DNA of 63,394 nt, filler included, from Chrysochromulina tobinii (GCA_001275005.1; 9 parts of 9 records of this genome joined end to end with filler, not necessarily neighbours in it); one strand, 5' to 3'; positions 15,903 through 45,360 are shown, numbered from the whole stretch's first letter. Notes: generated by a model not told the origin, from the letters alone. Translations and numbers: made by a program.

Positions 15903-18634
15903 ATGGCGGAGGACTTTGAGGAGTTCGACGACCTGCCCGAGTTCGCCAACGAGCCCAACCGCGCTCTGCACCGCCAGCTCAAGGAGCATGAGAAGGCGGT
16001 GGTCGTCGTCGAGAATGAGCTCGTCGAGACCAAGGAGCGCATCGGCACCATGGAGGAGCACCTCTCGGCCGTCAACACGGAGACGCTGCACACCCAGCGG
16101 CTGATCGACGCGAAGGTCAAGGAGATCGAGACCGAGGACCACCTCAAGCAGCTCGCGGAGCGCGAGCGTGGCCGCTTCCAGGCAGAGTACAAGAAGCTGC
16201 AGGCGGAGCTGGCGGAGCTGCACGACAAGGTGAATGGCGTGCAGGTTGCCGTCTTCAAGGGCAACGAGAAAATGGACCAGTTCAAGCTTCAGATGAACTG
16301 GAATCAGGAGGAGCTCGAGCAGTGGGCGCTCGCGGCCCGGCAAAAGGAGGAGGACAACCTCGCGCTGCTCAAGTACTCGAAGGCGGACGAGGCGAAGATG
16401 AAGGACCTTTCGCTGCAGCTGGAGAAGATGCTTGCCGCCGTGCAGAAGAAGAAGGCGGAGCTCGAGGACGAGGTAACGGACACGCAGGCGGCGCAGATCG
16501 AGCTCGACAAGACCGCTGAGGACTTCCGCAAGCTGCACGAGGAGCGCGGCGAGCTGGTGTCGCAGTGGGAGGAGGCGGTCGTGTCAATGCAGAAGCGTGA
16601 CGAGGCGATCCAGCGCGCGCACGAGCAGTTCTCGGTCGCCAAGCGCCAGCTGCGCGAGAAGCAGGAGGTCCTCGCCGAGCGAGAGGCCTTTTTGCTCAGC
16701 GAGCAGAAGAACAACGTCGAAGTCGAGAACAAGATCACGGCGCTCGAGCGCTCGGTGGCCAAGAGCCGCGAGACGCTCACGAAGGCGAACATGCAGCTGC
16801 GCGAGATGGAGGACCAGGTGGAGACGGTGCGCGGCACGCTGAGCAAGGCCGCCTCCGAGATGGCGAACAAAAAGGTGCGGGTGGCCGAGCTCTCGGCACA
16901 GATTGACGAGCGCAAGAGGCGTCTCGACGAGGCGAAGAAAAAGCTCGCCCAAAACGAGCGCTCGCTCGAGCGTTCGCACGCGCACATGGGCGACCTCGAG
17001 AAGTCGGCGAAGCAGATGGACGAGATAAGCGAGCAGGAGAAGATTCGGCTCAAGCAGACGGACAAGGAGCTCGCGGTGCTTAAGGACAAGATGTTCAACG
17101 AGGGGCAGAAGCTCTTCGCGCTGCGCCAGCAGGAGGCGCATCTGCTCTCGGAGATTTCGGGAGCTCAGCGCGTGTCGCGCAACGCGAGCGCGAAGCTCAA
17201 GCAGCTCGACGAGCGCTCGCAGGGGCAGCGCGAGCTCGTGTACGCCGCCGACTTCCAGCTGCAGCTCATGGAACGCAAGGTGGCGCGCGCCTCGGGCGTT
17301 CGCTCGCCGATGGAGCAAAAGGAGCTGCACGCGAAGATCGCCGAGCTCACGGAGGAGTGCGAGCGGTACACGGCGCAGCACCGGATGCTCAACGACCAGT
17401 ACAAGCGGCTCATCAACGACGTCAAGCAGACGAAGCGCATCGCGCACGAGAAGGAGCAGGAGCTCGAGAAGCTCGAGGGCCAAATCTCCGAGACCGAGAT
17501 GAAGACCGACGCGGCCTCGCGCGCTTTGAAGAAGCTCATCAAGGAGAAGGAGCAGAGCATGGTGGCGTTCGACGTGCTCAAGCTGGAGGGGAAGCGGCTG
17601 CGCGAGCAGCTCAACGCCAAGGCCGACGAGGTCTTCGGGCTCACCAACCGCAAGTTCCAGCTCCAGATGTCGATGGAGGAGCGGCAGGAGGAGATCAAGG
17701 TACACCTCGGATACACCTCGGACGTGCTCGCCCTCCTCCGCCCTGCATGCACGCCCCAGCATGCACGTGCTCACCACGGCGCCATGTCCCTTCCCCACAG
17801 GTGCACTCGGACGTGCTCCGCGCGCAGCTCAAGGCCGCTGAGGAGGAGCGGCACGCGGCGGCGCGCGAGCTCGCGAACAAGCTGATCAAGGTGGAGAGGC
17901 TCACAAGCAAGTACGACATCATCTGCGGCAAGCTCGGCGACGGCGGCGACGGCGAGCACACGCAGGCGTACTATGTGATCAAGGCGGCGCAGGAGCGCGA
18001 GGAGCTGCAGCGGCAGGGCGACGAGCTCGACCAGCAGATCCAAAAAGCGGAGCGCGAGATCAAGGCGCTCGAGAAGACGCTGCAGCACCTTTTTGCCAAG
18101 AACGCGGGCTACAAGCGTTCCTTTGCGCCCGTCGAGCAGAACACACCGCAGTTCGAGCAGAAGGTGCTCCTAGAGGAACAGCACCGCGCCGCCCTCTCGA
18201 AGTACCGCACCCACCGGCTCGAGCAGAGCGAGCTCGAGGAGGAGATGGCGCGTATGGCCGACCAGCTCGCTGAGCTCGATGACCAGAAGGCGCGGCTCTC
18301 GACTCAGCTGATGGACCTGTCCGACCAGTCTGAGCAGCTCGAGGAACGCGCCGCGCAGCAGTTGACGAAGCTCGAAGGCGCCAAGGCGCAGGTGCGGCGC
18401 ATGCTCAACGAGCAAAGGCAGCGCGGTGCTGGCGAGGCGCTCGAGCTTGAGCTGGCCCTCATCGAGCAGCGCAGCACCAATCGAGCGCTCATCGAGGCGC
18501 TCACGGCGATCGCTGCGAACGATCCGAAGCTTGCGATGGCGCTTGAGACTAAGATGGCCCAGGCGGGCGTCCAGCCGCCCGCCTTCGACCCGGAGCTCGA
18601 CGACGACGACGAGGCAGGAGTGGACGTTGCATGA
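15903..18634 (+). CDS. CCDC39: Coiled-coil domain-containing protein 39 (axonemal ruler, FAP59); intron 17700-17800
   Basis: LPEFANEPNRAL, FKLQMNWNQEELEQW, QAAQIELDKTAEDFRKLHEER, QAYYVIKAAQEREELQRQGDELD; a phase-0 GT-AG intron joins the two ORFs in frame. Confidence 0.93.
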
Positions 18635-18748
18635 GGCGGGCGAGAGAGGGCCGGGACTTGGCAACCGGAAAAAAATAGGGATGGGCCAGGTTTTCCCGGT
18701 TTGAACCAGGAAAAGTGGTCTGAACCAGGTGGGACTGGTTTTTTGAGC

Positions 18749-18848
18749 NNNNNNNNNNNNNNNNNNNNNNNNNNNNNNNNNNNNNNNNNNNNTTAATTAA
18801 TTAANNNNNNNNNNNNNNNNNNNNNNNNNNNNNNNNNNNNNNNNNNNN
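18749..18848. other. Artificial 100-bp assembly linker
   Basis: N44-TTAATTAATTAA-N44 (stops in all six frames). Identical linkers at 30549-30648, 33863-33962, 36070-36169, 45361-45460, 47690-47789, 51164-51263 and 60459-60558. Confidence 0.98.
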
Positions 18849-19076
18849 AAGCTCATACACATCATGGCTACACACCCCCGAAACGACGAAACGACAAACG
18901 GGGGTGGGGAAGCCGGCGGTAGCACTCTAAACATTTGGCACTCATTGATTGTATGTGGGGCAGCTTTCCAAAATGACCCTAATGATGAGTGCGAACGGAA
19001 GCGCGGCGGCGGCGGCCGACGGCAACGAACGGTTTTCCTTTCAAAACCGTTGCGGGGCGCTCAGTTGTACCTTGAA

Positions 19077-21239
19077 ATGGCAACCGTCGCTCTCGTTGCT
19101 CTCTCAGCCCTCGCGCTCGCAAGCGGAAACGTTCTCTCGGACGTCGCGCTCTCCAGTGCTAACGCTCTCTCGGGTGTTGCGCTCGCCAGCGAGAAGGTAC
19201 TCTCCGTGAACAAGCTCATGAGGCGCCGCCTCCAAGAGGTGCAGCCGTTCCAGTTCTACATCGATCGGCTCTACGAGAAGACTGATACGGCGCCCGCCTT
19301 GCCATCCATGAATTTCCCGGGCGGTAACAATAATGTGAGTCGGCCAGAGAGCGCCTACCCCGATCCTCTTTCCCGCCGAACCCAGCTCTTGTTCGACCAC
19401 CCCCATCACGAACACGAAGCTACCATCACGAGTTCTCTGCTCGGCCCTGTCCTTGTGCCGACGGCGCGCGTCCAACCCCCGTCCGCCCTCTCCTCCCTCC
19501 CTCCCACCGCTTGCTCGTAGGCTCTCGTCGATCTTTTCGAGTTCCAGCACCTCGTGCGCCTCCTCGCCCTCAACTGCGACGCGACGTCCTCGACACGCCA
19601 TGACGGGCGCTACTGCATCGCGGATGTGCCGGCCCAGTTCCAAGCCGCCAATGCCAACAACGTGACGAATGGTATCAGCATGACGGAGCTCACTAATTGG
19701 GTCGTCAGCCGTGAGAGCAGCGCAATCGCTGCGGACCAAGAGCTGGGAAACCAGCTCATCATGAGGCTCACGGGTGTGCCCGATCCGGAGGCGGCGGTTG
19801 GATTGCTGTCCGGAATCGGCCAGGTCTCCTCTTCGCAGTCAGCTGCAGAAGCGGTCGTCACCGTGTCCTTCACGCTCGGAGTCGCGCCTGACACGCTCTT
19901 CCCGGGCGAGAAAGACATGATCTTGATGAATTGCATCAAGCTGCTCTATCCCAACGAGACCCCGACCAGATATCAAGAGATCTTCACTGACACGGTCATG
20001 ACTATCTTGTCGGGCGACGCGAGCGGACGACGGCTGTCGGTGGCCACCTCGTCGACCGTGACCATCACCGCCTACTTCCCCAGCGATGCCGCGGCCTCTG
20101 CGGGCTCGGCCAACATGCAGTCCGTCATGAGTTCTCCTGCCGCCGCGACTACATATCTGGGCGTGCCCGTCACCTCGACCCCCACGGTGTCGATCAGCAA
20201 GCCGCCGGGCTCTGGCGCAATGGAGATCGTCCCGGCGGCGATCATCGCCGGCTTGATGGTCGTCCTCTTCTTCGTCGCTTGCTGCGTCGCCAAGTTCTGC
20301 TCCGAAAAGATGCGCAAGAAGTTCGAGACTGCACCGAAGGCGGTGGGCTGCTGCGGCAGCTGCCGCGCGGGCTGCTGCTCGGCCTTCGCGCTCAAGGGGT
20401 GGGCCTGGAACAACATGATCGCCATCGTCTTCCTGCTCGTCGCCGCAGGCGTGCTCTTTCACCGAATGCATGCTGTGACGATGGGGATCATCGGCATCAT
20501 CGACGCCGTCTTCGCCATGCAGACTGTGAGCATGGAAGAAGTCCGTGACGCTGTCGCAGGGTTCAGTAGCATCCTCGGCATGATCGATCCGATCCGTCCG
20601 CAACTCCCTCTGCTCACCATCGCGGTCATCGTGCCTGCCGCCGTCGCCGCCATCTTCCTCTTGATCTCTTCGTTGTGCTCGTGCCGCGCCTCTGGCACCA
20701 TGTGCTGCGCCAAGCTCTTCCTGATGCTCACGTATATCTTCCTGATCATCTGCATCGTCTTCTACATCATCTTCGCTGCGCTTGGGATCGCCATCTCGCT
20801 GCCCATAGTGAGATCGCAGCTCTCGATGGTCACCGGTATCTGCGGGACGACCTTGCCCATGCTCCAGCAGACTCTTCAGGACTCGAGCTTGGCACTCGAG
20901 CGCGCACGGGCCACGCCCGGCGTCGCCTCAGCAGATCTCGACACTGCCGCACAGCAGATGGCGAACGCTGCGGAGCCGGCAGCTATTATGAACGACCTGT
21001 GCGGCACACTGTACTCTCTCTTTGACCATTTGCCGGCCCTCTTCGCCCCGGCGCTCTCGTGCGTCTTCGCGGCCATCTACGGGCTCTACTCCTCGTGTGT
21101 CACGTGCTGCGTGGCCAAGTGCTGCTGCTCTCCGAAGGTGACAAGCAAGAAATACAACGGCGAGCTCGTCTGGCATGTGCATGGCAAGAGCAAGGTCACC
21201 AAGGTTATTCCGTCGGAAACGGAACTCGTAGCTCCCTGA
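19077..21239 (+). CDS. Signal-peptide, Cys-rich multi-pass membrane protein of unknown family (intron 19335-19520)
   Basis: MATVALVALSALALA signal; GTGAGT...TAG phase-0 intron; about five hydrophobic helices flanked by CC clusters; two RRL motifs. Confidence 0.75.
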
Positions 21240-21985
21240 ACTCGGTCTTGGATGCCCGATTCTCGCGCATCCGCCCGCTCGCCATGGTCGGCGTGAGCCA
21301 GCTTGAGGAAGAAGGCACCGGGACCGTCACCCCCATTCGTGGCCGCCGCCGCCGCCGCCGCCGCTGCCCCCGCCCTCCCCGCCCCCGCTTCCACCCCCAG
21401 CTCGACGACGACCTTTCCTCTACCGAGGAGGATGCTCTTAACAGATGTGTGTTGTTTGTGTGTCCGCCACGGTCCACACGCCAGTCAGGCGAGGTGGTTG
21501 CACGGGTTCAGAGGCTTCAGACCCGGGGTTGACCCGGGGTATGGCGACTCTGAATCGTGTCTGTGAGCGCGGTCCGCGGGACGGAGCATGAGAATGATCC
21601 GAGTGTGAACGTGTATGTGGTGTGTCTCTTCAGTCTTCTCTGTGCATCACACTTAAAGGGATGGTTATGAATATTATATATTATATATTAAACAGCCCCG
21701 TGAGCTGGCCAAGGTTCTTCACGAGTGCGGTGTGCGCGCGATTGAATGCCGATTGCGTTCGTACGTGTTGGAGTGATGAACGTGTACCGAGGTGCGTTGG
21801 TGGGTTGGGATGGTTGTGAGGTTCGTCTGTCCGTGTGTCCCGTGTGTGTCCCGGCTCCCCCCGGTGTCTTTTTACCGAGGATGAGGGGAAGTGGCACCGG
21901 AAACTTCTAACTTCGCCAAGAACATGCTTGCGCTTTGCGGTGAGGGTACAGACCCTCGGTTGCGGCGCCCGAGTCTGCCGAGGAG

Positions 21986-22375
21986 ATGGCAGCGCAACCC
22001 GGCGAGACTCCTGACGTGGAGGGTGAGCCGTGGGTGCTGCGGCTCGGAAATTTTCTAACCAAGAAAAAGGACACGCCAAAAGATGAGACGCCGTGGGCTG
22101 TGAAGCTCGGCACATACCTGGAGGAGCGCAGGCCAGCGCCGTGGACGATTATTGCCAACGAGAAGCCGAAAGACCCTCTTGCTCTGCGGCTCGGCACGTT
22201 CCTCAACGAGCTCGGCGGTACCCGCGATGGTGAGAGCTCGGAACCGTCGGAGCCGATCGTGCTGCGGGTGGGGAACTACCTCAATGGCGCAACCCGTAAG
22301 GGAGCTGATGGCGAGGACTCCCCGCTGATGGGCGGGCAATCGCCAACCGCGGCTGCGCCCCCTCAGGCCGTGTAA
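21986..22375 (+). CDS. Small protein with four PxxLRLGxxL repeats
   Basis: PWVLRLGNFL, PWAVKLGTYL, PLALRLGTFL and PIVLRVGNYL are conserved as protein while the codons differ. Confidence 0.65.
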   Translation: MAAQPGETPDVEGEPWVLRLGNFLTKKKDTPKDETPWAVKLGTYLEERRPAPWTIIANEKPKDPLALRLGTFLNELGGTRDGESSEPSEPIVLRVGNYLNGATRKGADGEDSPLMGGQSPTAAAPPQAV

Positions 22376-22721
22376 GCGGGCCGAGCTTACTAGCCCAATA
22401 CCGCCGGTGCAGACGCTCCAGGAGCGATAGCGATGCACCAGATGCACCAGATGCCACAAGGAAGCGACTCGCCGCATGCCGAGCCAAGGCAAGGCCGGCT
22501 GACCGATGGCGTCTGAGCAATAACAATCTGACGGGGAGACAGACAGACAGACAGACAGATAGACAGATGTAAGAGCCTGAGAAGCCCCCTGGTACTTTGC
22601 ACATAATTTGTAGTCTGAAGAGCTCTGAACTTTCCCACACGTCACCCCCCCCGGCCGTGGCGTGGGTGCCGGCGGGGGCATGTTCACGTGACTGTGCATT
22701 CCGTGAATATTCATTCCCTTT

Positions 22722-24178: not shown

Positions 24179-25387
24179 CTAGACAAGTTTCCGTCGGTGC
24201 TTGCCCGCAATAGCGAGAAGTTTGTCCGCGATAGTGTGGAGCTTCTCCGCGAGGGCCGTGGTAAGGTGGATGAAGTCTGACCACTGGTCATACGCGAGGC
24301 ATCCCGCCTCATGTCCCCCCTGCCTGTCAGGTTCCGCAGCCGGCACTCCACGTGGGCGCGGCATCTTGTCGAGCACCTCGGGGCCTGCCATGATTGTCCA
24401 CAGCCGGAGAGCACGGAAGGCCCGCCGGACCAAGCATGCCCCACTCCACACCTCGCGCAGCCCCCGAGACGTAGTCCACACCGATCGGGGGGCAGGTCGA
24501 TCGAGGACTACGATGCGATCGCGGTAGCTGATGACCGTTGTGTGAACCGCGTTGGGTTTAACCCTTGGCCCTGATCGAGCCACGCAGGCGGCTTTGCGCC
24601 CTTCATTGAGTATGCCCACGATCCACTTGAGGAATCCTCGCCCGTAGGCGAGCGCGAGTGTCCTTGCTGCCTCTTTGGACTCAACGACAATTTGCGCCCT
24701 AGGAGAGTCAGGAAGCCCGAGCATGAATCGTAGTGCCGCGTGGCGCTCAAGCGGCCCGAGCTGCGCCGCGTTGCCTGATAGGGCTGCGAGAGCATATTGT
24801 GCTTGTCTCGTACCAAAGTCACTCAGACGTTGACTGAGCCATCCTGCAGCACGCGCTCGGTAATCAGCGGCCTCGCCGACGCAGCAAGTAGTTAATGCGT
24901 GCCATCGGGATTGAGGCGCTCGTGCCGGCAGCGGACGCCATATGCCCGCCACAATCACATCACGCGCGAGGAAGCATCCCGTGCACGGACACGGCGCATG
25001 CGTCTGACACCACCATTCCCAGCTGCCTTTCTGAGCGTGATAAGCGCGCTCGCGCTCGCGCTGCGGGGGACCAATCAGAACGCGTTCGCGTACGTCGTCC
25101 CCGAGCCTGTCAGCGAGTAGTCCACAGCGATCTGCTCGGGCATCCAGTATACAGTCGCGCGTAGCTTCGGTGAGGAGTCTCGCCCGCACTGGTGATCGAC
25201 AGAACATTGGCCACGTCTCCGCGGTCTCGAGAAGGGTGAAAGAGGATGCGCCCGCAAGCTTACGAGCCATGATCGCCGCACACAGATCGAAGACAGCCCT
25301 TCCAACCCCCCGTTTGACCCCCGCTATGCGGCAGAGTGCGTGTAAGGAGGGCATGAGGTCGATTGGTCGGATAGATGCACTAAGCAT
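24179..25387 (-). pseudogene. C-terminal retroelement segment with CPCxxC...H...C motif
   Basis: Follows RNase H after a frameshift near 25385; HAPCPCTGC...RWHALTTC. Confidence 0.55.
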
Positions 25388-26291
25388 GGATTGAGCCGTC
25401 GGCCGCCTCGTTGGGGGTGATGCCGTCGTGGCTGTGGACGTGGACGTAGAGCACGGCGCGGTGACGTTGCTCGAGGCGGGATATGTTGCCCAGCTCGTTG
25501 TCTCGGTAGCGTGCCGTTTTGGACGACACCGTGCGCCCGGGGAACGCGTGGCCTGCTTGCATTCCGCTAAGGCAGTCGGTCACAAAAACAGTGACCGTAC
25601 CGACGGTGGTGGCAAGTTGGTCGTGAAAGGCGGCAAGTTCGGCCTCGTACGAGTGGCGCTCAAAGGTGTCGGCGAAGACGTCGAGCTGCCCTCCCACGAC
25701 AGTACGCCCTAGGACCTCGGCAGCTACTGAGACGCAAGCCCGACTAACCACTTTGTTGCCCGAGTCAGGGTCGACTGCTTTGGACCCGTCCGTCGGGACA
25801 AAGTGGGTGACTGGGTACTCGGATTCGAGAACCAGAAGCTTGTCAAAGACGAATCGGCACTCCTTGGCCTTGAGCTCCTTGTGGGCGCGTGCGCAAATCT
25901 CGTGACATTCCCACCAGAAGCGCGCGGCTAAGGGGCAATCAGGGTGAAACGGGTTACCGCGAAGCCGGCCGGAGTCGTCGAAAGTGTAAGCAAGGCGGAC
26001 CCGACATAGCCACGCCTCCCCCCTTCCGATCCACACTTGATGGTAGCCCCCTTGGGTCCGTTGCCTCCACTCCCGTTCGTCCGGCTTCAGCTTGGAGTCG
26101 TACGAGAAAATGACTCGGCGCGTAGACCCGTCGAGGTCGAGTTGAGTTGGTCCCGCAGTGCCGTGAGGAAGGGGAGCAGGTGGTGCTGAGGTGCCGAGAA
26201 GGGCGGAGAAGGCCTCCTGCAGCTCTCCGGCGCGCGCTCCGTCGAGTTCCCGTCCCGACTTCTCTATCGCGGTGTGCCCATCTCTATGACT
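25380..26291 (-). pseudogene. RNase H domain of the retroelement
   Basis: D-E-D-D catalytic set: TDGS (25782-25793), YEAELAA, VTDCLS, NEAAD. Confidence 0.8.
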
Positions 26292-26964
26292 CAGAGCGCA
26301 ATCCTCATTGCTTACCCCAAAGAGGTTCGGTCTGCGGTCGGAAACCATCTCTTCAGGGCGGACGCTCTCAGTCATGATGACATCTACGCTCGAGCCAAGG
26401 TGCTCCTAAGTGCGATTGAGAATGGCGCGTCGTGTGAGTCTTGGCTTCGACAGCAGCCCCCAGGTCAGGTGCGCAACTCATCCTTACTCACGAACATCTG
26501 GATCTCGCCTTCTACTACCTTCAATTTGGCGGCGTTTGCGCGCGAGCAAGTGGCTCGAGCGAGGTGGCTCGCTGGCGCTCAGCCCCACCTCATCTCCTTC
26601 GTCGAGACCTTAAACGGCCTCATGCAGGAAGGGGATCGCGACGCCGAACTCACGGCCAAGTCGTACGTACTGCAAGACTACGAAGGTGCTTCGAGGCGGG
26701 CCAAGGTGGAATGGGCTCGACGCACGCAGGCGCAAGTCATCAACTTGCAGCACGACGGCGTGCGCATGCGCTTCCCCTTCGACTTGCACCTTGAGACGGC
26801 ACTTCTACGGATTTCGGACGCGTGCTCGGCTGCTCTTGGGTACAAGCAGGTAGTCTGCGTTAAACAATCACCTAAGGGCAACTCGCTGCTCGATCGCCTT
26901 CAACCTTCAATCCTACCTCCCGCCACCCCTCAGCGCCCCCCTACAGTGTTCACCCCTTCTGTGA
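26286..26964 (+). pseudogene. Inverted segment encoding the C-terminal half of a family-A/TV-Pol-like polymerase domain
   Basis: RAKVLLSAIENG (motif B-like), SYVLQDYE, INLQHDG (26745-26759, motif C-like). Confidence 0.65.
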
Positions 26965-27340
26965 CTCTTGACTGCCTGCTGAGCTGTCGGAAAACTGATG
27001 GCGTCATCCAAGTCGTGACTGACCTCCTGGAGAGCAGCGTCACGTACTAGGCGAGAACAAGTGAAAGGGTCGGGGCCGAGGGCGTACTCACGGCTGTATC
27101 GAACGAATCCGGCGGCGACGAGCCTCGCGCCGCGCTCAGAATGCACGTAGGATATGGGTAGACTGCGAAGGTGCGAGCTCGACGGGTGTTCCTTGCTAGC
27201 CGCGAGAAGCCCTCGCACTTCGGAAGCTACAGTGGTGCCGGGGTGACGGCCAGGCACTCCGGCATTTGGGGATAGTAGGAGAGCGCGGAGGGCGGTGGCG
27301 TGAATGACGCATTCGATGGTGGTGGTGACGGGCCCACGGC
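26962..27340 (-). pseudogene. N-terminal half of the family-A/TV-Pol-like domain
   Basis: SREY...SRLVRDAAL...HDLDDAISFPT (27003-27014, motif A-like); frameshifted from the RT ORF at about 27260-27360. Confidence 0.6.
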
Positions 27341-29503
27341 GGCGTTCAAGCCACGCGGACCAATCGTGAAGGCGGTTCTGGCGGTCGCGTAAATGGATCC
27401 ACGCTCCATTGCAGCGGACGGGGTGTCTGAGCTATCGCCGACGAGGATGGCTGTAATCGCTTTGGCGTAGAGGCAAGCGGACCAGAAGTTGTCGACCGCC
27501 GTGCAGGTTGATCCGCTGGGAAGGTTCTTGAGCACTGCAGGCGCAAGCTCCCCGTACTTTCGAAGGTGGTACTTCAACAGAGCCCGGTCTATCATCCTGT
27601 GAAAGGAAAGACCATGCTGGTCGTCCGTAAAGTTGATAAAGGCGCTATCGGGCAATAGCTGGATGGCTGCCCGCAGGGTATTGACGTCGACGGTCACCCG
27701 GAGGAGCGCTGCAAGCTTATGACCGCCGTCTCCACTACGCTTTCGCTGGGCAAGATCGGCGAGTGGCAATTGTCGGACGAGCCCATACTCTGCAGGGGCG
27801 TAAGGAGGGATGATCCCATCGGCAGCATCCGCCATTGCCCACCCCCGTCGCCCTGGCACAGGCGCTACATGGCACGCAATGATAGCCCCAAGGAGGACTG
27901 CGAGTTCACGCCGAGCCTCACTCGCCCCGAGCTCGACTGCCCGTGGGTGCGCTGAAAGGATGTCATCGACGCCTAAGAAATCCCCATGAGTCTCGTCGCA
28001 CAGGTTAGCGAGTTCAGCTATGCCGCCAGCGGCGAGTATGGGGCAGAAAGTGACGCCCTTGGCGCGTAGCCGCGAGTAGAGGGGCCCGTGCCAAAGTCCG
28101 ACCCAGTCCTCAGGGTATCCCGGCCAGCGCTCTGCGCGGAGGGGGGACCATTCCGCGAAGTGACAATCAACCAGCGGGAGATAACCAGCACCAAGCTGAC
28201 AAAGGATCCACATAGGGCGCTCGATGACGTTGTCCAGACGGAGGAATTCAGAGACGGGGCCAAGGAGGATGCCTTGAGGCCCGAAGGTAAGCTGGCGAAG
28301 GCCGTAGGTCCACAGAACTCGAGCGACGGCATGGTGGGCACGATCGGCGGCTGGTGTATGGACGGGCGATGCCAGTGCGTTGACAAGAGTCATGGCCGCT
28401 GCCGCCATCAAGGCCGGCCATACGTGGGCAGTGCCGTAGCCGGAGACGAAGGCAGCGGGGCCTGCGACGTTGACAAAGAAATGCGCCAGGTCGTCGTTGG
28501 CCGGCGCAGTAATCCCTCCCGGTTGGGCGTGGAGTTGGATGCGTGGCGATGAGTACGAGCGCCGCGGGCCCTTGACTCCCGCGCCTTGAAAACATTTTCG
28601 GCTCGCAGGTCCCAACCTTCCCTCGATATCTTCAAAAGATCCCCCGAAGCAGGTGCCGTAGAAGAAAGCATTCCCGTACACGCCCAGACCAGCACACCCG
28701 GTGGCTATTCTCCTGCTCGTGTGAGAAGTCGTAGCTTGAGCTCCACATGCCGAGATCTTTGTTTTGAGGGTGGCGAGGCCAATATTGTTGTGGTTTCCAT
28801 CCATGCGCGTCGCCATACCGCAGTACAGATAGTGTTCGCTGATGAGAAGGTTGGGGATGAGGCGAGGGGGGTCATTCGGCCGAAGCCCCGCAATGAAGAA
28901 GTCCTTTTGCGTTTCAGTGGGGACAAGGGTTCCGTTGCGTGCTCGCTTGTACTCGAGCGCCTGCACCACCGTCTTGTCCTTGCCCTTGATGTTGAGCTGA
29001 CAGTCAGTTATGCGGCTCCAGATGGACCAGAAAACCGTAACTCTCTGAAGGAAGTCAGCGTCCCCCGTAGCGTTTGCCGCGTCGTCCACGAAAACCAACA
29101 TGCCTAATTCTAGTCCAGCTCCGTCCGGTGCGAAGGCCGAGTAGCCGGAGACCTTAAGCTCAAGTGCCTGAGCGATAGTGTCCATCATGATTTTACACGC
29201 TTCGGGCGACCCTTGCGCACCCTGGAGGAAGCCGCGCAAGATTGGGAATGGGTCGGTCGCACCAAACGCCGTCTCATACCGCCCTTGCGCCACGCCGTGC
29301 TTCCAGTTATCCACGAGCCCTCGAAGAGCCCGTAGCGCAGCCTCAGGAACACCAATGTGACGCATTGCCATAGCGGCGGCCGTGCGGGAGAATGACATGA
29401 AGCACTTCGTGAGGTCGACATAAAGGACATAAAGAGGTTTGCGCCGTGCGAGGGCGTCGTCGATGCACAGATGTAGGGCGAATGCTTGCTCAGTGCATCC
29501 TCG
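27227..29503 (-). pseudogene. Reverse transcriptase (LINE-type) region
   Basis: Frame open from a stop at 29504-29506 through LYVDLTKCFMS, QGAQGSP, FVDD, LNIKGKDK and YLYCG. Confidence 0.85.
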
Positions 29504-29535
29504 TTAAGGCGTGGATCCGGCTGGCTCCAGCGCCA

Positions 29536-30548
29536 TCCGGGTTAACCGGATAGTGGCTATTTTGCCATCTGGTAGATACAGATAGCTGGTGTGGGTGGTC
29601 CAGGTAGATCCAGATACCGTAAAAAAGTCTTCGGATATTTCGGATAGTCAGATATCCGGATACCGGTACAGTACTGTACCGGTACACGTGCGCACCGCTT
29701 CACCGCGCGATGCTGGCAGGCTTTCGCGCTTCGCTGCCGTCGGCTGTGCTCGCCGCCACGCTTCTTCGCGACGCGGGCGCTGCCAGTGCTCGCCCGCAAC
29801 CAGCTTCCAGCATTGAGCGTCGCGTCTCCACTGGTGGTCAGCACTACTAATCGGGAGCCAGCCAACTATGTGTTGCGCTTGCTCGCTGCTGGCTCGCTGC
29901 TTGCTGCACTTGTCCAGCCGGAGGCGGCGGAGTGTGGGGGCACAAAGCGCAAAAAGGGCACTGTGGTGGAGGAGTTTTACGAAGTCGATTGCATTAAGGC
30001 GCGCCGCATTGTCAAAGGAGGTCGAGCGCATCGACCGCTTCAAGGAGCTCCTCGCCAAGCGCGCCAAGGAGACCCCCGAGGACTCAGAGGCTTTCTGACT
30101 ACACCCGTACAAGGACCAGCTGCTCGAAAGCGCCAGGGCACTAGCGCGCGAGCAAATCCTCGACTGGCAGCTCCACGGGCCGGACGAGCACCTGGAAGTC
30201 TGAGGTCATTTTGGAGCCCAGTGAGATCCTGGATGCCAGAAGTGGACCGATGGAAGTAGCCGACGATGCCCTTGCAGCGCGAGAAGGTGTCCACGATGAC
30301 GGCCGCGCCAGTGTAGTTCTTGACAGAGAGCTCAATTGTGTGGTCGGCGCAGAATCCGCCATCGAAGCCCACCCAGCCCGGTTAGCGCCCGGCCTCGTCG
30401 CTGCGGGCGTTGAGCGTATGTTCTCGAAGGCGGGCAAGCTCCATGGCGCAGACAAGGCTCCCCAAGAGGATGGGACCCTCGAGCACTGCCTCTTTGCCTC
30501 CGCCAACACCGAGTAGGGATGAGAGAGCACGCACGAGCGGAGCAAGAG
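29536..30548 (+). mobile_element. Degenerate hAT-like DNA transposon remnant
   Basis: AGVERMFSKAG...LEHCLF resembles the hAT dimerisation motif; fragmented frames; repetitive CGGATA/TATCCG subterminal region abutting the truncated RT. Confidence 0.55.
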
Positions 30549-32919: not shown

Positions 32920-33710
32920 CGTGGGGTTTCCTATCCTTTTTGGGGGGGGGGTTCCTATCGGATACGTATCCTGATGTATTTCGATGTATCCTGCATGTAT
33001 CTTGCATGTATTTCGATGTGTCCTATCAAGATACATCAAGATACATCAAGATACATCAAGATACATTTGTATAGGATGTATCTCGCATGTATCTCGCATG
33101 TATCCCGCATGTATCCCGCATGTATCCCTCAGATACGTACCTCTCTGCATACATTTGAGATACATGTCTCTCATGATGTATCCCTGATGTATCCCGCATG
33201 TATCCTCTATGTATCCTCTATGTATCCTGGAGTACCACTGCAGATGCATGTATCCCGCATGTATCCCGCATAAATGCTTGCATGTATCCCACATATATTC
33301 GTCATGACCGTCCAAGATACATGTATCGTGATTTTGTATCTCGGTGTATCCTGATGTATCGTGATGAAGAGTCCAAGATACACGTATCCTGATGTATCCT
33401 GACATGTATCCAGTGTGCCACCAAGGAAGCGCCCAAGATACATGTATCTTGATGTATTTGATGTGTATCACCAAAATGTATCTTGGACTCGTTTGGGATA
33501 CGTGTAAAATACATGCATAATGTGAAGGATACATGTATTCTCTTGGAATGTAACAGAGCATGTAAAATACATTTGAGATACATCAGGATACATTCGGGAT
33601 ACATGTATCCTTCAGGATACATGCAGGATACATGCAGGATACATGCAGGATACATAAGGATACGTATTGTATAGGAAACCACCCCCAATTTGTATAGGAA
33701 ACCCCCCCTG
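32920..33710. mobile_element. MITE-like element filled with GATACA/TGTATC motifs
   Basis: Imperfect terminal inverted repeats GGGGTTTCCTAT...GATACGTATCCT and AGGATACGTAT...ATAGGAAACCCC; related copy at ~48180-48400. Confidence 0.65.
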
Positions 33711-36069: not shown

Positions 36070-36169
36070 NNNNNNNNNNNNNNNNNNNNNNNNNNNNNNN
36101 NNNNNNNNNNNNNTTAATTAATTAANNNNNNNNNNNNNNNNNNNNNNNNNNNNNNNNNNNNNNNNNNNN

Positions 36170-37422: not shown

Positions 37423-37959
37423 ATGATGGTGATGTGGGGGTGACGAATGGGGTGAGGTGGTGGCAATAATCCGTGGGTTGACGTGCTTTCGGGTTCGTCT
37501 CATGAAGCAAGGCGTGGCTCGATCCCGAAGGCCCATCGTGTGAGCGCCATGGTGAGCGCAGCCCAGATGTGGAGCGCCATGGTGAGCGCGATCAAAGCAC
37601 TCCGTCGCAACGCGCGCGTACCGTTTGATATCGGTGACGGTGACCATGCGATCATGGAGCGATGCGAACCTAATTTGGTGACGATGCGACTTACGTCGTT
37701 GTCGGTTTGCAGCGGAGGGCATTTGTCCACTTGCGAGTGGAGCGTGGCAGGTGAGTCGTTACGTTATGTAGAACCGAACCGGTGTCTCGGGTACAACCGC
37801 GTATTCATGTTGATATATTGTGGGGCGATCGACCCTCTGCGATCGACACGCATCGTTACCAAACAATTTTGCAGCTGGTAGTGCACCTCGAAATGGCCGT
37901 GCTACTTGTGAACGCGCATCGGCGCGCGCGCATGCTATCCCTAACCCTGAGAAGATGCA

Positions 37960-38889: not shown

Positions 38890-39086
38890 GTGAATCTCCG
38901 TGGCGCCGAGATCAACTCCGCACGCAAAAACGACGCGTTAGTCGGTGGCTATTCACCGCGCCCCACGCTTCGAGCTCACCCCGAACTTTCGAACGCGAAT
39001 GATGTTGATTGTCATTTTCTGGAACGTGGACGGAAGCAAAGATTCCTCTCATCAACCAATTCTGTACTCCCCGCCGCCGAATCCAC

Positions 39087-40247
39087 ATGGCGGTGAGCTT
39101 GCAGTTGGGCTTGCAGTTGGTGGGCTTGCAGTTCGCACCACACTATCTGTCCGGAGCGTGGCGCATGACACCTCGGGTCGCACCAGCCATGAGGTTGAGC
39201 GAGGAGGAGGAGGATCGGGCAAGTGACCAGCGCCTGCTGGATGCCCTGTTTGGCGATTCACCAGAGGCGCAATCCTATCGTGACATGGACCCGGACGTGC
39301 CTTCGCACGCCAAGCTCCGCGTCGACGAGGATGGTAGGCCGCTCTTGCTGCGCTTCGTGTATGTCGACGAACTGACATGCATCGGGTGCACTTACTGTGC
39401 TGAGGTGGCGAGGAGTACCTTTTACATGAACGAGGACGCTGGCCGCGCCCGTGTCTTCAACCAGCACGGCGATGATCCTATGGTGGTGCAGGAGGCGATC
39501 GACTCGTGCCCCGTCAACTGCATCTCGTACGTCGATCATGAAGATCTCGTCATTCTCGAGACTGAGCGAGAAGGCATCAAGATCAACCCTATGACGATCG
39601 GGATCCCGGCCACCTGGAGCGCGCGCATGCAGGCGGTGCCGCCGACGAAGGCGAAACTCGGCAAGGGGAGCCGGATCTGCTGCAATAACTGCCCAGGGCG
39701 CGGCTGCAAAGAATGCCCGATGTACGGAGTCGGCCTCAATCCTGTGTACATGGAGCGCATGGCCGCAAAGAGCTCGTTGAGGGAGGCGAGCGGCGAGGCG
39801 GCCAAGCTCCGCTTCGACCAATCGGCGCAGGAGATTCTCGACTCCTTCCTCGGCGCCGCGCCGGAGACGCCCCTCGAGGTGCTCGCCAGCGAAACGGACG
39901 ACGAAACCACTGACGAAACCGTTGACGAGAAGGCCGTTGAGGAGCTGCCGAGCGTCGTCGTGGGGATGGTCGTGCCACTCGGCGAGGCGCCTGCAGTGGC
40001 GCCAGTCGCGCCTCTGGAAGGTGTCGTGGTGTCAAGTCAGATCAAGTCAAGCCAAGTCATGTCAGTGGAAGGTGTGGTGGTGCCGGTCGGCGATGGTGCG
40101 GATGTGCCCCCCGCGCCCGTGGCGGCGTTGCGATCTGAGGATCTCCTCAGCGCCGACGGGCCGAGCGCTGCGTTCTTCGATGTGTTGTACGCGCCTCCGA
40201 GCGAGTTCCTCGTGGACGACGTCGACGACATGCCGCAACCGATCTAA
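39087..40247 (+). CDS. Fe-S ferredoxin-domain protein (CDJ3/4-type Fd domain, no J domain)
   Basis: YVDELTCIGCTYC...GRARV...AIDSCPVNCI; second motif CCNNCPGRGCKECP; acidic tail. Confidence 0.8.
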   Translation: MAVSLQLGLQLVGLQFAPHYLSGAWRMTPRVAPAMRLSEEEEDRASDQRLLDALFGDSPEAQSYRDMDPDVPSHAKLRVDEDGRPLLLRFVYVDELTCIGCTYCAEVARSTFYMNEDAGRARVFNQHGDDPMVVQEAIDSCPVNCISYVDHEDLVILETEREGIKINPMTIGIPATWSARMQAVPPTKAKLGKGSRICCNNCPGRGCKECPMYGVGLNPVYMERMAAKSSLREASGEAAKLRFDQSAQEILDSFLGAAPETPLEVLASETDDETTDETVDEKAVEELPSVVVGMVVPLGEAPAVAPVAPLEGVVVSSQIKSSQVMSVEGVVVPVGDGADVPPAPVAALRSEDLLSADGPSAAFFDVLYAPPSEFLVDDVDDMPQPI

Positions 40248-40436
40248 CTCGCCAACAGCCGTCCGCGTCGTCGGCCTTGCAGATTGGCAAGCGTGGGGGT
40301 ATGTATTCTGGGTCCACGAGTACAGTACGTGAGCTTGTTTCTGCATTATGAACTCTCATATGTGCTCAAAACGGCGCTTCGTCACTTGGGGAGCGCGCGG
40401 CTTTTCCGACGGCCGCTGCCAGCCGCGGAAGGAATC

Positions 40437-40907
40437 ATGTCGAAGATGATGATGTCGGGTTTGAAGACCATGGCGGCCGGCGCCAAGGCGGGAGCGGATT
40501 TGTCGGCGCGAACCGCACAGGCGACGAAGCTGCGAGCGGATATCGTGCTGCTGCAACGGAGCGTGGCCTCTGCCAAGAAGGAATTTGGACCGCATGTGTA
40601 CGATGCAATGGTCTCCGGCAACCAATCGGAAATCGATCGACTCTTTGCGGACGTGAAAGCAAAGGTCCAGGGGCTCGAAGCACAGATTGAGGCCAAACGC
40701 CAGGCCGTGGCAGATCTCAAGGTGCCAGCATCTGCTCGAGGAAGCGGGGGCGACGACGATGTGACGCCGCCGCCGCCTGGGCCAGCGCCAGAGGCAGCGG
40801 ACGTTCCAGCCGGCTGGAAGAAAACGACGACGGCCGAGGGGCGCGAGTACTACTACCATGAGGCAACTGGCGAGACGTCGTGGACGGTGCCCACAGCGAA
40901 AGATTGA
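40437..40907 (+). CDS. Coiled-coil + WW domain protein
   Basis: PAGWKKTTTAEGREYYYHEATGETSWTVP. Confidence 0.85.
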   Translation: MSKMMMSGLKTMAAGAKAGADLSARTAQATKLRADIVLLQRSVASAKKEFGPHVYDAMVSGNQSEIDRLFADVKAKVQGLEAQIEAKRQAVADLKVPASARGSGGDDDVTPPPPGPAPEAADVPAGWKKTTTAEGREYYYHEATGETSWTVPTAKD

Positions 40908-41341
40908 AGGCCCCATGGAACGGGCAACTGTCTGCTGCGCATGCCCGGTGCGGTGCCGTTCTCCTTCACGCTCGACGTGCGCTGTGGACGTTGGCGCGCG
41001 AGTCGCGGGTTCTTGCCGCAGGGGCGGGGGCGACCTACTTCGGGGTGGAGGAGAGCCGATTACTTTCCGATTCGCGCCTGTCCGCTCGGCTCAGTCATGT
41101 GTGTTGGAGTGTCGATCGATCGCGGAGTGTGGGCGACGGCCCCCGAGGCCGAGCGCTAGCGGAGAACGTTATCCGCTATAATAGTGTTGTTGATTGTGCA
41201 TCTCCGGTCTCCCGCGAATGGAAAGTGCCACGGTCCCAATTAGTCCAACTCACACGTCTCACTGTTGATGTTCCGCACTTTCGGAAGACCAATAAAATCC
41301 CAAACGCATAGGCCGCTGATTGTGATACCGGTTCCTCGGCA

Positions 41342-41427
41342 GAGCTCCATCTCGCCCTGGAGCTCCATCTCGCCCTGGATGGAGCTCCATCTCGCCCTGG
41401 ATGGAGCTCCATCTCGCCCCGGAGCTC
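41342..41427. repeat. Tandem 18-22 bp repeat GGAGCTCCATCTCGCCCT
   Basis: About four copies directly after the stop codon of the AP2/CW gene. Confidence 0.9.
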
Positions 41428-44400
41428 AATCGTCGCCAAGCACCGGGTAGGCCAGGCGCAAGGCCTCCAGCGTCCACATCGATGGCTCGTACGCCACCGC
41501 GGTGAGCGAAGACGCGAGCGTGCGCGCAATCTCGAGCTCGAGCTCACGGCACTCGACGAGCTCGGCAATCTGGTGCTCCGGCTCCGGGCGCATGGTCGCG
41601 CCGCAGCCGCCGAGACGCAGCGGCCGACCAGTGCCGCACACGAAGCGCTCATACACGGGCTCCCAGCGCGCGCGCTGTGAACAGTCGCACAGGGGTGTGA
41701 GCGAGAATGGGGGCACGAGGTGCTCGAAGGTGCACCCGCCCGCGGACTGCTCACGCATGCAGAACCAGCGGCCGCGCTGCCAGTCCGCGCGCAGTCCGCA
41801 ATGGCACAGCACTGCAGCTTGCATGCGTAACCGCTTCGACGGCCTCCCTGAGCGAGCGCTGTGTCGGGCGCACCAGTCGAGGTTCGGCTGCACGTACCAG
41901 GGCAGAGCGGGCGCCGTGGTGAGCGCTGCGGCGGCCGACGAAGCTACCGGTACCGCCGTTGACGAAGCTACCGGTACAGCCGTTGGCGCTGGCGCCCACG
42001 ACGGCGCCGGCGCACCCTGGGGCGCCCACGACGGCGCGCCGTGGGACGCTCCTGCAGACGCAGCACCGGGCACGCGCGAGATCGGCGCCCGCCACGGCGC
42101 CCCCTCAGAGGCTGCATTGCCGTTGGCGATGCCCACCACGGCGCCTATTGGTTCCACAGACGGCGCCTCGGTGGCTCTCTTGCGCTTGCCGTTCGGTGCG
42201 GACGCGTCGGGCGCTGCGTCGGGCGCTATGGCGCCCAAGGCGGAAGAAGACGCGCACGACAAGACCGTCGAGGGCTGCAGGGGGGTCGGCCAGCTGGAAG
42301 CCTTCACAGCTGGAGCCATGCCTTCACAGCTGGAAGCCGCAGGTACAGTGATGGCTCCAGCTGGGAAGGCCATCACGGGCTCCAGCTGTGAAGGCACGGC
42401 TCCAGCTGTGAAGGCCATCACGGGCTCCACCTTGACGAAACTCACCCCTTCCGCTGACGCCGGCAGCGCTGTCGCGAGCGGCGGCTGCGGCTGCGCTGGC
42501 CTCACGCACGGCGGCACGCTCGTCTTTGGCGTCGTCGTGGGCGGCAGGTGGAGCTGCACCACGGACGCCGCCGAGGCTGCGGCGGCCAGGACGGCAGCGG
42601 ACGGGAAGGAAGCGGCGGCCGCGAAGGAGAGGGCGCCGTACTGGGCGCAAGAGTCGCTGGAGCGGTTTCGGTCCGTGGTGCTGCTGCTGCTGCTGAGGCT
42701 GCGCTCGCTACCAACGGTCGGGCAGCGGCGGGCCGCCGTACTGGGCAGCGCCGTACTGGGCAGCGCCGTGCTGGGCAGCGCCGTGCTGGGTAGCGCCGTG
42801 CTGGGCTCGCTACCAACGGTCGGGCAGCGGCGGGCCGCCGTAGGCGCCGGGGCGGGCGCCGCGCAGGCTGCTGGTGCAGCAGCCGTCGTACTGGGTAGCG
42901 CCGTACTGGGCGGCGCCGTACTGGGCAGCGTCGTACTGGGCAGTGTTGTACTGTGTGGCGTCGTACTGGGCGGCGCCGTACTGGGTTGTGCCGTACTGGG
43001 CAGCGCCGTACTGGGCAGCGCCGTACTGGGTAGCGCCGTACTGGGCAGCATCGTACTGGGCAGCGTCGTACTGGGCAGCGTCGTACTGAGTGGCGCCGTA
43101 CCGGGCAGCGCCGTACTGGGCAGTGCCGTACTGGGCAGCGTCGTACTGGGCAGCGTCGGCCGCCTCGGCGCCGCCGCAATCGGCTTCGAAAGCGCTCGCG
43201 GAGGGCGCTGTGTCGGGCACGTCCAACCGACCAGTGAGGACCACTTGCGCGCCGGCCGAGACCCGAGGCGCTCAGCACGGCGCGCCTCGGCGATCGTTCT
43301 CGGTCGGCGCTCAGGACGGCGCTCGGCGGCGGCGGCGGCGGCGGCGGTGGCTCCGAGCCCCGCCGCGCTCGCCACCGCGCTCGCCACAGCGCTCGCCACC
43401 GCGCTCGCCACAGCGCTCGCCGCCGCGCTCGCCGCCGCGCTCGCCGCGACCACTGACATGGGCGGCCGCAGCGAGGGCACATGCAAATGTGGCAGCGTCG
43501 CCTGATGACGTGTCCCCAGCTCTATGCGACCATCGAAGATCGATGCGTCGGCGACGCGAAGGTAGCCCGCGCGCCGTCCGCCCCCCTTGGCCTCTCCCCC
43601 CTTGATGCCGCCCTCGCCCCCCTTGATAGCGCCCTTGTCCTTCCCCCGCTGCTCCCGCTGCTGGCGCCGCTGCTGCACGCGCTGCCGCGCCGCCTCCACC
43701 GCGTCCTCGTCCTCGTCCTCATCCTCCGCCTCCTCAGAGTACTCCTCCTCAGTCGCGTCACAGTCATTCCGCCGCGGGTCGTCATTGAGCTCACAGACCC
43801 AATGCTCGGAGAGCACCTGTGAAGAGAGGGGAAGGAGGGGGAGGAGGGGGCGCCGTGGTGAGCACTTGGAGGGCGCCGTGGTGGGCACTTGCATGCCGCC
43901 GCATCGGTCCGTGTGCTCGCAGATCCAGAGGGCGCCGTGGTGGGCACCTCGAGAGCAGCCGCCTCATCCAGCCCACTCGGTAGCTCAATACGGCGCCACT
44001 TGGCACAGCGCTCGCACTGCACCCACGTGCACGCCTCCTCGTCCTCCGCTTCGTCGGCTTCGTCACTCCCCGCCTCGCCGCGCCGCTCAGTACGGCGCTG
44101 CTTCTTCTGCCGCTCGTCGCCCCCACCCCCTTGGTCGCCCCTACGCTCAGGACGGCGCTCCTTCTTGTCCTTGTCCTTGTCCTTGTCCTTCTCCGCCTCC
44201 TTGTCCTTTTTATGCTGCGGCCCGGGCGACTGCTCAACCAGCCGGCTCACGCCCTGCCGCTGCCGTTGCTGCCCGATCTCGGGCAGCGAGATCTCGAGAT
44301 CGCGAACGAGCTTGTACACCTCGCCCCTGCCGCGACCGGCCTCACGGGCGCCCGACACGGCGCCCTCCCGGGCGCGCTTGCGGCTCGCGTGCGCCCGGCA

Positions 44401-45360
44401 CGGCGCCCTCACGTGCAGCGCGAGCCGGACCGCGCCCCGCTCGCGCACGGAGACCTCCGCCGCCACGTGCGCGCGTGGTGCGCCCGACACGGCGCCATCG
44501 GCGCTCGCCTCGTCATCGACCGCCATCGGGACGGCCGTACCTAATTAGGGAGAGCGGGGCGCCGTGGTGAGCACATGCATGCAAGGCAGGTCATCAGTCC
44601 ATCGGGACGGCCGTACCGGTACCATACGAAGCGCCGTCCTGAGCGGCGGTGCGCTCAGTACGGCGCGCTCGGGCCGCCGCCGCGCGCTCGACACGGCGCT
44701 CGACCGCGCGCAGCGACGTGCCCACGTAGACCGCCCGACACGGCGCGCTCTCGCCCGTCGATCTCAGCTTGAGCTCGAGCCGCACGAGCGGGCCTTTGGC
44801 GCCCACGACGGCGCCCCCGGGGCCACCACCGCCATCGCCATCGTCACCGCCACCTTCAGCGCCTCCGAGGGTGCGCTCCCCTCCGCGGGTACGCTCGGCC
44901 TTGCTGCCGCCGTCGCCGTCGCCGTCGTGCCCGTTAGCTGAGGCTCGGCCATTATCTCGGCCATGATCTCGGCCATTATCTCGGCCATCATCTCGGCCAT
45001 TATCTCGGCCATTATCTCGACCATCATCTCGGCCATTATCTCGGCCATTATCTCGGCCATGATCTCGGCCATCATCTCGGCCCGCCGCCCGCGCCGATGC
45101 GTCGCGATGCATGCGCGCATACTCGAGCGCGCCCTCCTCCGCCGTCGAGAACCATCCAAGGATGAGGCGTGAGTAGCGCGCCATGTACGGCGTGTGCTTA
45201 CTGGCCGTCTTGTGCAGCTGGAAGGAGACCCCCATGAAGCCAGACGAGTTCGCCGAGCGGCTCAGTGTGAGTCCTTCCGAGGCCGCCTGCGCCAAGGCGG
45301 CCTCGGCGCGGCGGCGGTACTCGTCCGGATCGAGGGGAGGCATACTGGGATCCATCGACG
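41426..45360 (-). CDS. AP2-like + zf-CW + ELM2-like + GRF-type zinc-finger regulator (introns 44541-44616, 43817-43947; possibly 5' partial)
   Basis: EGLTLSRSANSSGFMGV...LGWFSTAEEGALEYAR; spliced WVQCERCAKWRR...LE|VLSEHWVCELNDDPRRNDC; IELGTRHQATLP; CHCG...WFC...CTF and CDCS...FVC...GC. Frames join across both introns. Confidence 0.8.

What the first reader, a model, noticed from the sequence alone, without database searches (positions are those of the whole stretch)
17700..44616. Same 17-bp motif GTGCTCACCACGGCGCC near the 3' end of three introns in two unrelated genes (Introner-like family)
Seen: exact copies at 17767-17783 (+, CCDC39), 44558-44574 (-) and 43849-43865 (-), always in sense orientation, ending 17, 17 and 32 nt before the intron end. 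They are preceded by GCATGCA-type sequence and followed by a pyrimidine tract. One-mismatch copies lie at 43872-43888 and 43931-43947, and the latter supplies the GT donor. I did not find the motif in the WNK introns or the 19335 intron. Known: Introner elements create introns en masse in algae, and CTCAC fits a branch point. Inference: a mobile cassette carrying branch point and acceptor.
Basis: partly seen in the sequence, partly recalled or inferred. Interest (0 to 1): 0.7.

Follow-up and report, generated by a model that had tools for sequence, protein, structure and literature searches.

The report
New introns made by duplicate-and-fill insertion
In the alga Chrysochromulina tobinii and close relatives, many short introns consist of a 13-56-base copy of the neighbouring exon plus a shared piece that carries the splice signals, and one such intron is present in one strain and cleanly absent in another, which likely shows new introns being made by pasting intron fragments into staggered DNA cuts.

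Summary
The motif and coordinates are real. The window is Chrysochromulina tobinii. In metagenome loci 88 of 123 acceptor-bearing sites carry such a copy (control 2 of 150), 13-56 nt, median 29; none of 88 has inverted ends. The CCDC39 intron is spliced in RNA, shared by close strains and absent in relatives. One 81-nt member with a perfect 33-nt duplication is present in one record and absent in two others that are 98% alike. A longer form carries its own donor and takes the AG from a duplicated upstream exon end. So this works like an Introner but fails the published definition; the 2025 screen scored this genome zero. The enzyme is not shown: reverse transcription of intron RNA is my best guess, DNA-repair template switching a close rival. 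The two gene-2 introns lack RNA proof. This scan noted a similar repeat-flanked intron elsewhere in this genome before (e1-2577349).

The parts
15903..17699 (+). CCDC39 exon 1 (599 codons)
   Evidence: 100% identical to P0001, named by NCBI as a C. tobinii protein, Pfam PF24161
17700..17800 (+). Family intron, 101 nt, GT..AG, phase 0
   Evidence: skipped in RNA contigs of 3 of 3 RNA runs, not in DNA run X9
17700..17729 (+). Copy of the start of exon 2 inside the intron (with a small internal re-duplication); supplies the GT donor
   Evidence: gapped score 10; sister alleles P0132/P0134/P0002 read as a longer copy (read at protein level)
17759..17800 (+). Shared 3' piece: GCATGCA-N, 17-mer (17767-17783, branch-point-like GCTCAC), pyrimidine tract, CCCCACAG
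17801..18634 (+). CCDC39 exon 2; its first 18 nt are the second copy of the duplicated target
44541..44616 (-). Family intron X in the zf-CW gene, 76 nt (82 nt if the GT at 44622 is the donor)
   Evidence: frame test; not confirmed by RNA
44599..44616 (-). Perfect 18-nt copy of the next exon's start (44523-44540)
44558..44598 (-). 5'-truncated piece of the long family form: 24 nt shared extension plus the 17-mer (44558-44574)
   Evidence: extension found with at most 1 mismatch in 8 of 119 metagenome regions
43817..43947 (-). Family intron Y, 131 nt, three motif copies (43931-43947, 43872-43888, 43849-43865); splits a zf-CW domain
   Evidence: not confirmed by RNA
43907..43927 (-). Probable older, diverged copy of exon sequence (16 of 21 nt match the exon from 43801); weak
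   Evidence: read; anchored gapped score only 6.5
41910..41926 (-). One-mismatch copy not at a shown intron end; an RNA contig runs through it
   Evidence: X12 record 2, 41584-41942

Best explanation
These are young spliceosomal introns, each made of a 13-56-nt duplication of the host exon with a fragment of one ~70-nt intron family set between the two copies, likely pasted in when a LINE-type reverse transcriptase copies intron RNA into a pair of staggered nicks. Shown: the duplication, the shared fragment, its variable 5' end, splicing of the CCDC39 member, and empty sites. In the common mode the fragment brings branch point, pyrimidine tract and AG, and the first target copy starts with GT and becomes the donor, so the mRNA is unchanged. 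In the mirror mode the fragment brings the donor and the duplicated upstream exon end gives the AG. Inferred: the nick on the template strand primes copying from the intron's 3' end; the copy stops after about 30-60 nt and joins the second nick through 2-3 nt of microhomology; only events at donor-like sites that give a 65-95-nt intron survive in exons; each new intron is itself a template, so no autonomous element ends are needed. The structural part stands at about 0.9; the reverse-transcriptase part at about 0.45.
For: 88 of 123 distinct acceptor-bearing sites have the exon copy, control 2 of 150; length 13-56, median 29; 76 of 88 copies start with GT; only 2 of 88 have another motif just upstream, so most are not re-duplicated old acceptors. 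The two copies differ at 148 of 2516 aligned nt and 26 of 88 are perfect. L112 holds an 81-nt member with a perfect 33-nt duplication inside an open frame; L032 and L064 hold one copy only, flanks 97.9% alike. CCDC39: every cluster member at 98% or more that spans the site reads into the intron, except two Logan records (P0135, P0136) on mRNA-sized contigs; relatives at 76-87%, among them P0011, P0012, P0015, P0142, P0145, P0147 on contigs of 7-168 kb, read straight across. Ladder of 5' ends along the long form in 300 copies; 5' extensions of 12 nt or more shared between loci in 19 of 138 against 0.3 in shuffles. 2-3 nt overlap at the 5' junction in 12 of 16 testable sites. No inverted ends, 0 of 88. 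76 of 80 further copies lie on the same strand as the anchor copy. Copy length and insert length trade off (rho -0.47). Targets are donor-like: GTRNG in 51 of 79 against 28 of 210 other GT in the same exons. A LINE-like reverse transcriptase frame lies in the window, and many RNA contigs hold the motif.
Against: No enzyme is tied to the family. The window's LINE-like region has no motif match (best 8 mismatches of 25) and its frame found no tblastn hit in the loci. There is no poly(A) or fixed 3' end: 27 of 62 other copies are also flanked by repeats, many without an AG (control 9 of 150), and the mirror form is cut at its 3' side, which needs internal priming. Tails of neighbouring copies are more alike than distant ones (0.288 against 0.174; 3 of 2000 permutations), which fits local DNA templates as well. 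A hairpin that a LINE protein could recognise is not supported (40 changes keep, 31 break the stem; z -1.26, +1.25, -0.27 for the motif regions). Sense bias and donor-like targets can come from selection alone. The clean empty site is one case and could be a loss by recombination between the repeats or an assembly collapse. 35 of 123 sites fall below the duplication threshold, and window intron Y shows only a weak copy. The frame test on loci was uninformative (73 against 67 of 88), so splicing of the metagenome members is inferred from their signals.
Confidence: 0.5

Rival explanations
1. DNA-repair route: two nearby nicks are filled in to give a tandem duplication, and a repair polymerase (theta-like, or synthesis-dependent annealing) switches for a short stretch onto another family intron in DNA through microhomology. 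Same product, no RNA step.
For: Both ends of the fragment vary; microhomology at junctions; nested multi-round inserts; neighbours share tails; CTGA-type repeat arrays are also flanked by direct repeats (57 of 107 against 3 of 292) and an unrelated filler with a duplication is polymorphic in L152/L085. Staggered-break intron gain is described in Daphnia (PMC4202315, passages).
Against: CCDC39's 18.7-kb contig has no second 17-mer at up to 3 mismatches, so the template was distant; the same extensions recur in unrelated regions; Daphnia repeats are 4-12 nt and their inserts mostly have no known source.
Confidence: 0.33
2. A tiny non-autonomous element moved by an HUH (Replitron- or Helitron-like) transposase, with variable duplications and a fuzzy end taken from the parent's flank.
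For: Chlamydomonas Replitron-1 makes variable target duplications and a parent-derived fuzzy end, and one Replitron protein was recovered from a single C. tobinii locus (10.1101/2022.12.15.520654, passages).
Against: That paper reports these signatures for C. reinhardtii only; no terminal direct repeat or fixed second end is seen here; the hairpin is not supported; mirror-mode copies lack the supposed fixed end.
Confidence: 0.1
3. The motif is only an unusually long branch-point consensus in old introns, and the exon copies are later local duplications.
For: The least variable letters are GCTCA, a branch-point-like core; some copies are local tandem re-duplications.
Against: Empty orthologous sites; no motif upstream of the donor in 86 of 88; no match in the WNK or 19335 introns; shared extensions beyond the core.
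Confidence: 0.04

Closest known systems
Introners that carry the 3' splice site and take the 5' site from the target duplication (Symbiodinium; Polarella classes 4/5 and 6/8/10; 10.1101/2020.10.14.339549 parts 1-2; 10.1101/2022.06.06.494994 passages)
   Same: Dispersed family makes precise introns; acceptor carried, donor taken from the first target copy.
   Different: There the duplication is fixed at 3-8 nt and the whole intron is family sequence, often with inverted ends. Here it is 13-56 nt, makes up about a third of the intron, has no inverted ends, and the fragment is cut at either end.
Introners of marine Chrysochromulina MAGs (10.1101/2022.06.06.494994, Fig. 2C legend)
   Same: Same genus label; no inverted ends; resembles the mirror mode (donor carried, acceptor co-opted).
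   Different: 4-nt duplication. The family sequences lie on GitHub and could not be compared; three motif strings had 0 hits in the stored, cut supplement. C. tobinii GCA_001275005.1 is listed with 0 families in PMC12130899 supplement file 7.
Intron gain at staggered double-strand breaks in Daphnia pulex (PMC4202315, passages)
   Same: Direct repeat of adjacent exon sequence at the other end of a new, polymorphic intron; repeated rounds inside young introns.
   Different: Repeats 4-12 nt and mostly unknown, AT-rich inserts; here longer repeats and one recurrent GC-rich family.
Tandem genomic duplication of AGGT-bearing exon segments (PMC3443670, passages)
   Same: Duplicated exon sequence supplies splice sites; seen in some CTGA-array introns whose repeat spans AG-GT.
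   Different: In the motif introns the acceptor and branch point come from inserted family sequence, not from the duplication.
Non-LTR retroposition (LINE/SINE, target-primed reverse transcription)
   Same: Variable-length duplication, 5' truncation, 5' microhomology (hallmarks recalled; variable duplications also in PMC9977147 passages).
   Different: No poly(A) or tandem tail, no partner LINE found, 3'-cut mirror copies.

Membership tests
Introner (operational definition, PMC12130899 Methods) | Similar introns in at least 4 unrelated genes | tested here: met
   139 distinct intron-end copies in 93 regions; 2 genes in the window. Gene identity of most loci not annotated.
Introner (operational definition, PMC12130899 Methods) | Similarity reaches both exon-intron boundaries, 5' with 5' and 3' with 3' | tested here: not met
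   Mean identity 0.28 at nt 7-26 among 88 introns; only a few long-form copies share a 5' end. Definition read.
Introner (operational definition, PMC12130899 Methods) | Insertion gives a spliced intron and an unchanged mRNA | tested here: met
   CCDC39 intron spliced in 3 of 3 RNA runs; protein collinear with relatives. Only this one member shown.
Introner (operational definition, PMC12130899 Methods) | Recent gain: empty orthologous sites | tested here: met
   L112 versus L032/L064; CCDC39 relatives. Direction of the first not polarised.
MITE / TIR DNA-transposon Introner | Terminal inverted repeats | tested here: not met
   0 of 88 with a run of 6 or more
MITE / TIR DNA-transposon Introner | Short target duplication of fixed length | tested here: not met
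   13-56 nt, continuous spread
SINE / LINE-mobilised element | Variable-length target duplication | tested here: met
SINE / LINE-mobilised element | 5' truncation with microhomology at the 5' junction | tested here: met
   ladder in 300 copies; 12 of 16 testable junctions
SINE / LINE-mobilised element | Fixed 3' end with poly(A) or tandem-repeat tail | tested here: not met
   variable pyrimidine tract, 77 of 125 end CCCCACAG; 3'-cut copies
SINE / LINE-mobilised element | 3' end shared with an autonomous LINE | tested here: inconclusive
   only the one LINE-like region in the window could be checked; no match; no whole genome held
SINE / LINE-mobilised element | Internal pol III promoter (A/B boxes) | not tested
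   no test run
Replitron / Helitron non-autonomous element | Conserved terminal direct repeats or 3' hairpin, shared with an HUH element | tested here: inconclusive
   hairpin not supported; the autonomous element could not be fetched
Tandem genomic duplication introns | Both splice sites from the duplicated exon segment | tested here: not met
   acceptor lies in the inserted piece in the 88 sites

The most novel reading that the evidence does not exclude
Introns breed introns without a transposon: fragments of spliced or unspliced intron RNA are reverse-transcribed into staggered nicks, the long target duplication supplies the missing splice site, and every product is a new template. This would be a genome-wide, still active intron factory that current Introner screens cannot see, with a built-in route to precise loss by recombination between the repeats.
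Probability: 0.3. Interest if true: 0.9.

Novelty: new variant of a known kind. Interest (0 to 1): 0.74.

Why it matters
How new spliceosomal introns arise is still largely open; most mass gains are laid to DNA transposons with short fixed duplications. Here a cultured alga scored as Introner-free carries a family, by rough extrapolation 600-8,300 exact copies in 59 Mb (from 3 copies), whose members keep a readable record of the target, the inserted piece and both junctions, and at least one site differs between strains. That makes the staggered-break, duplication and reverse-transcription models of intron gain directly testable in one organism, and suggests a new screen (intron start equals next exon start) for other genomes that similarity-based searches miss.

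Tried and rejected
No whole genome is held and the records behind five loci could not be searched, so there is no genome-wide count or unbiased intron-enrichment test. RNA laid on gene 2 gave too little cover to test its introns. A search for longer homologues of the gene-2 middle exon found none (weak evidence). Open-frame test across spliced metagenome junctions did not discriminate. RNA hairpin in the motif: not supported; the whole CCDC39 intron folds better than shuffles (z -3.2), a single case not followed. Link to the window's LINE-like element: none found. The first neighbour-similarity test merged unrelated loci through shared repeats and was replaced, in which only the tail measure is clear (upstream 6 nt 71 of 2000, variable N 1281 of 2000, shared variants 121 of 2000). 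Viral collection: 16 of 17 stretches with the 17-mer lack the family context and look like chance; one has it at a contig end. Penelope/Chlamys as mobiliser: no passage on duplication length or haptophytes found in PMC8557442. Not-in-print claim rests on paper searches and supplement searches; files 13-14 of PMC12130899 were not searched, the PMC9860276 file was cut when stored, bioRxiv supplements and the GitHub family sequences were not seen.

Full report
Observation. The window is nine contigs joined by N spacers. Exon 1 of the CCDC39 gene is 100% identical to P0001, which NCBI names as a Chrysochromulina tobinii protein on a contig of 18,748 nt, the length of the window's first contig. No whole genome was held.

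Are they introns? 17700-17800 is skipped, GT..AG, in RNA contigs of 3 of 3 RNA runs and not in the DNA run. For the second gene RNA cover was too thin; no joint was listed in 4 runs and one contig ran unspliced over the 43817 acceptor. Removing both introns opens a frame of over 700 codons, keeping either gives a stop, and the 43947-43817 intron splits a zf-CW domain into profile positions 1-15 and 24-47.

Intron 44616-44541 starts with a perfect 18-nt copy of the next exon's first bases; the CCDC39 intron starts with an imperfect copy; the third shows only a weak one. Of 155 distinct exact copies, 150 had enough flank and 125 were followed by a pyrimidine tract and YAG, 77 of these ending CCCCACAG and 97 followed by GT. 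Of 123 distinct sites, 88 have a copy of the exon start upstream of the motif (control 2 of 150); it is 13-56 nt long, median 29, starts with GT in 76, and defines introns of 55-134 nt, median 79; only 2 of 88 have another motif just upstream. The two copies differ at 5.9% of 2,516 nt and 26 of 88 are perfect. Of the other 62 copies, 27 also sit between direct repeats, many with no acceptor (control 9 of 150; some are tandem repeats of the motif unit). No terminal inverted repeat was found in 88 of 88, and the 5' parts of different introns are unrelated. In the viral collection 16 of 17 hits lack this context.

Recent gain. In unspliced gene calls, all listed CCDC39 relatives at 98% or more that span the site read into the intron, in at least three allelic forms, apart from two Logan records on mRNA-sized contigs; relatives at 76-87% identity, six of them on contigs of 7-168 kb, read straight across. 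That these six calls are unspliced is inferred from junk or truncated starts in four of them and from read-through in the same source. Of 18 locus pairs aligned, most were the same strain; among five diverged pairs, L112 carries an 81-nt member with a perfect 33-nt duplication in an open frame where L032 and L064 have a single copy (97.9% alike), L147 carries a tail-only insert with a duplication that L071 lacks, and L152 differs from L085 by a 93-nt duplication-led insert with another filler. Loss by recombination between the repeats, or assembly collapse, is not excluded for any one case.

The family is larger than the 17-mer. A longer form that begins with its own donor and CTGATTGCC-type units and runs into the motif occurs in L030, L073, L086 (three times), L127 and L150; in several the duplicated target is the end of the upstream exon and supplies the AG (read by eye). 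300 copies follow this form upstream for 1 to 38 nt, most for 8-13; window intron 44616-44541 follows it for 24 nt. Extensions of 12 nt or more are shared between loci in 19 of 138 copies against 0.3 in shuffles, five of these rows being repeated or probably homologous sites. CTGA-type arrays are themselves flanked by direct repeats in 57 of 107 cases (control 3 of 292) and 90 of 100 lie on the motif's strand.

Mechanism. Shown: duplication, insert, variable ends, 2-3 nt overlap at 12 of 16 testable 5' junctions, 76 of 80 extra copies on the same strand, donor-like targets (51 of 79 against 28 of 210), a trade-off between copy and insert length, and the least variable letters at GCTCA, which fits a branch point (consensus recalled). 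Inferred: two nicks 13-56 nt apart, templated synthesis from a family intron, rejoining by microhomology, and selection for spliceable products. I favour an RNA template and a LINE-type reverse transcriptase because the same fragments recur at distant loci in sense orientation with a 5' ladder, a reverse transcriptase with an RNase H-like frame exists in the window and motif-bearing RNA contigs are many. Against it: no poly(A) tail, 3'-cut copies, no motif in that LINE, no supported hairpin, and neighbours with similar tails, all of which suit DNA-repair template switching. An HUH element is a weaker rival.

Comparison with the literature. Introners that carry the acceptor and take the donor from the duplication are known, with fixed 3-8 nt duplications (10.1101/2020.10.14.339549, parts 1-2 of 4; 10.1101/2022.06.06.494994, passages; PMC11282704, parts 1-2 of 5). 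The 2025 screen lists C. tobinii with 0 families (PMC12130899 supplement file 7) and requires similarity up to both boundaries (passages), which this family fails. Daphnia neointrons have 4-12 nt repeats (PMC4202315, passages). Tandem duplication and break-repair models: PMC3443670, passages. The genome paper mentions introns once, as about one per gene in 59 Mb (PMC4580454, passages). Also seen: passages of PMC8557442, PMC9977147 and 10.1101/2022.12.15.520654 and the outline of 10.1101/051292. I found no description of this family in eight paper searches and four supplement searches; unseen supplements and the GitHub family sequences could hold it.

Earlier notes of this scan. I reached the duplication reading before looking. 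Note e1-2577349 reports a 66-nt intron with a 15-nt repeat in a polyketide synthase gene of this genome and over a hundred related introns in metagenomes; it is probably the same phenomenon, but its sequence was not shown and I did not test it. It is not independent support.

Verdict. Real, recent and mobile; works like an Introner but is not a member by the published test. New variant of a known kind; interest 0.74; enzyme unresolved.

Noticed in passing
window 49100-50600 (-), 14741-14854 (-), 60050-60360 (-): Introns or intron-like stretches filled with degenerate 10-nt CTGA-type repeats. The intron ending at 50187 holds a diverged copy of its own exon-exon junction, as if two duplication-flanked inserts had stacked; the stretch at 14741-14854 has the mirror form and may be partly collapsed in the assembly (DNA contigs break at 14726-14743).
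   Followed up: partly
window 27227-29503 (-) and 25380-26405 (-): Degenerate non-LTR retrotransposon: RVT_1 (E 2.4e-6, below Pfam's cut-off) and a weak RNase H match (E 0.019); clade not settled.
   Followed up: partly
window 30145-30516 (+): Frame ending in a stretch that resembles a hAT transposase C-terminus (recalled); Pfam found nothing.
   Followed up: partly
L001 1501-1560 / L012: A record of the viral collection ends in a family acceptor piece, suggesting a chimeric join with algal DNA.
   Followed up: no
L021-L023, L070, L072, L073, L083: Copies cluster strongly, up to about seven in one gene region, while long stretches of the window have none.
   Followed up: partly
window 57950-59560 (-): WNK-like kinase gene with several ordinary introns without motif; one appears to start with GA or an unusual donor near 59085 (not checked).
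   Followed up: no
window 42700-43150, 44950-45080 (-); 61000-62150 (+); 62750-63050; 32950-33700: Tandem arrays: 15-nt and 12-nt coding repeats in the zf-CW gene, ARM-like repeats, a GACTTAAG-rich array and a TGTATC-rich array.
   Followed up: no
window 4442-4476: RNA contigs of three runs differ from the DNA at five nearby places; probably a paralogue or other strain.
   Followed up: no
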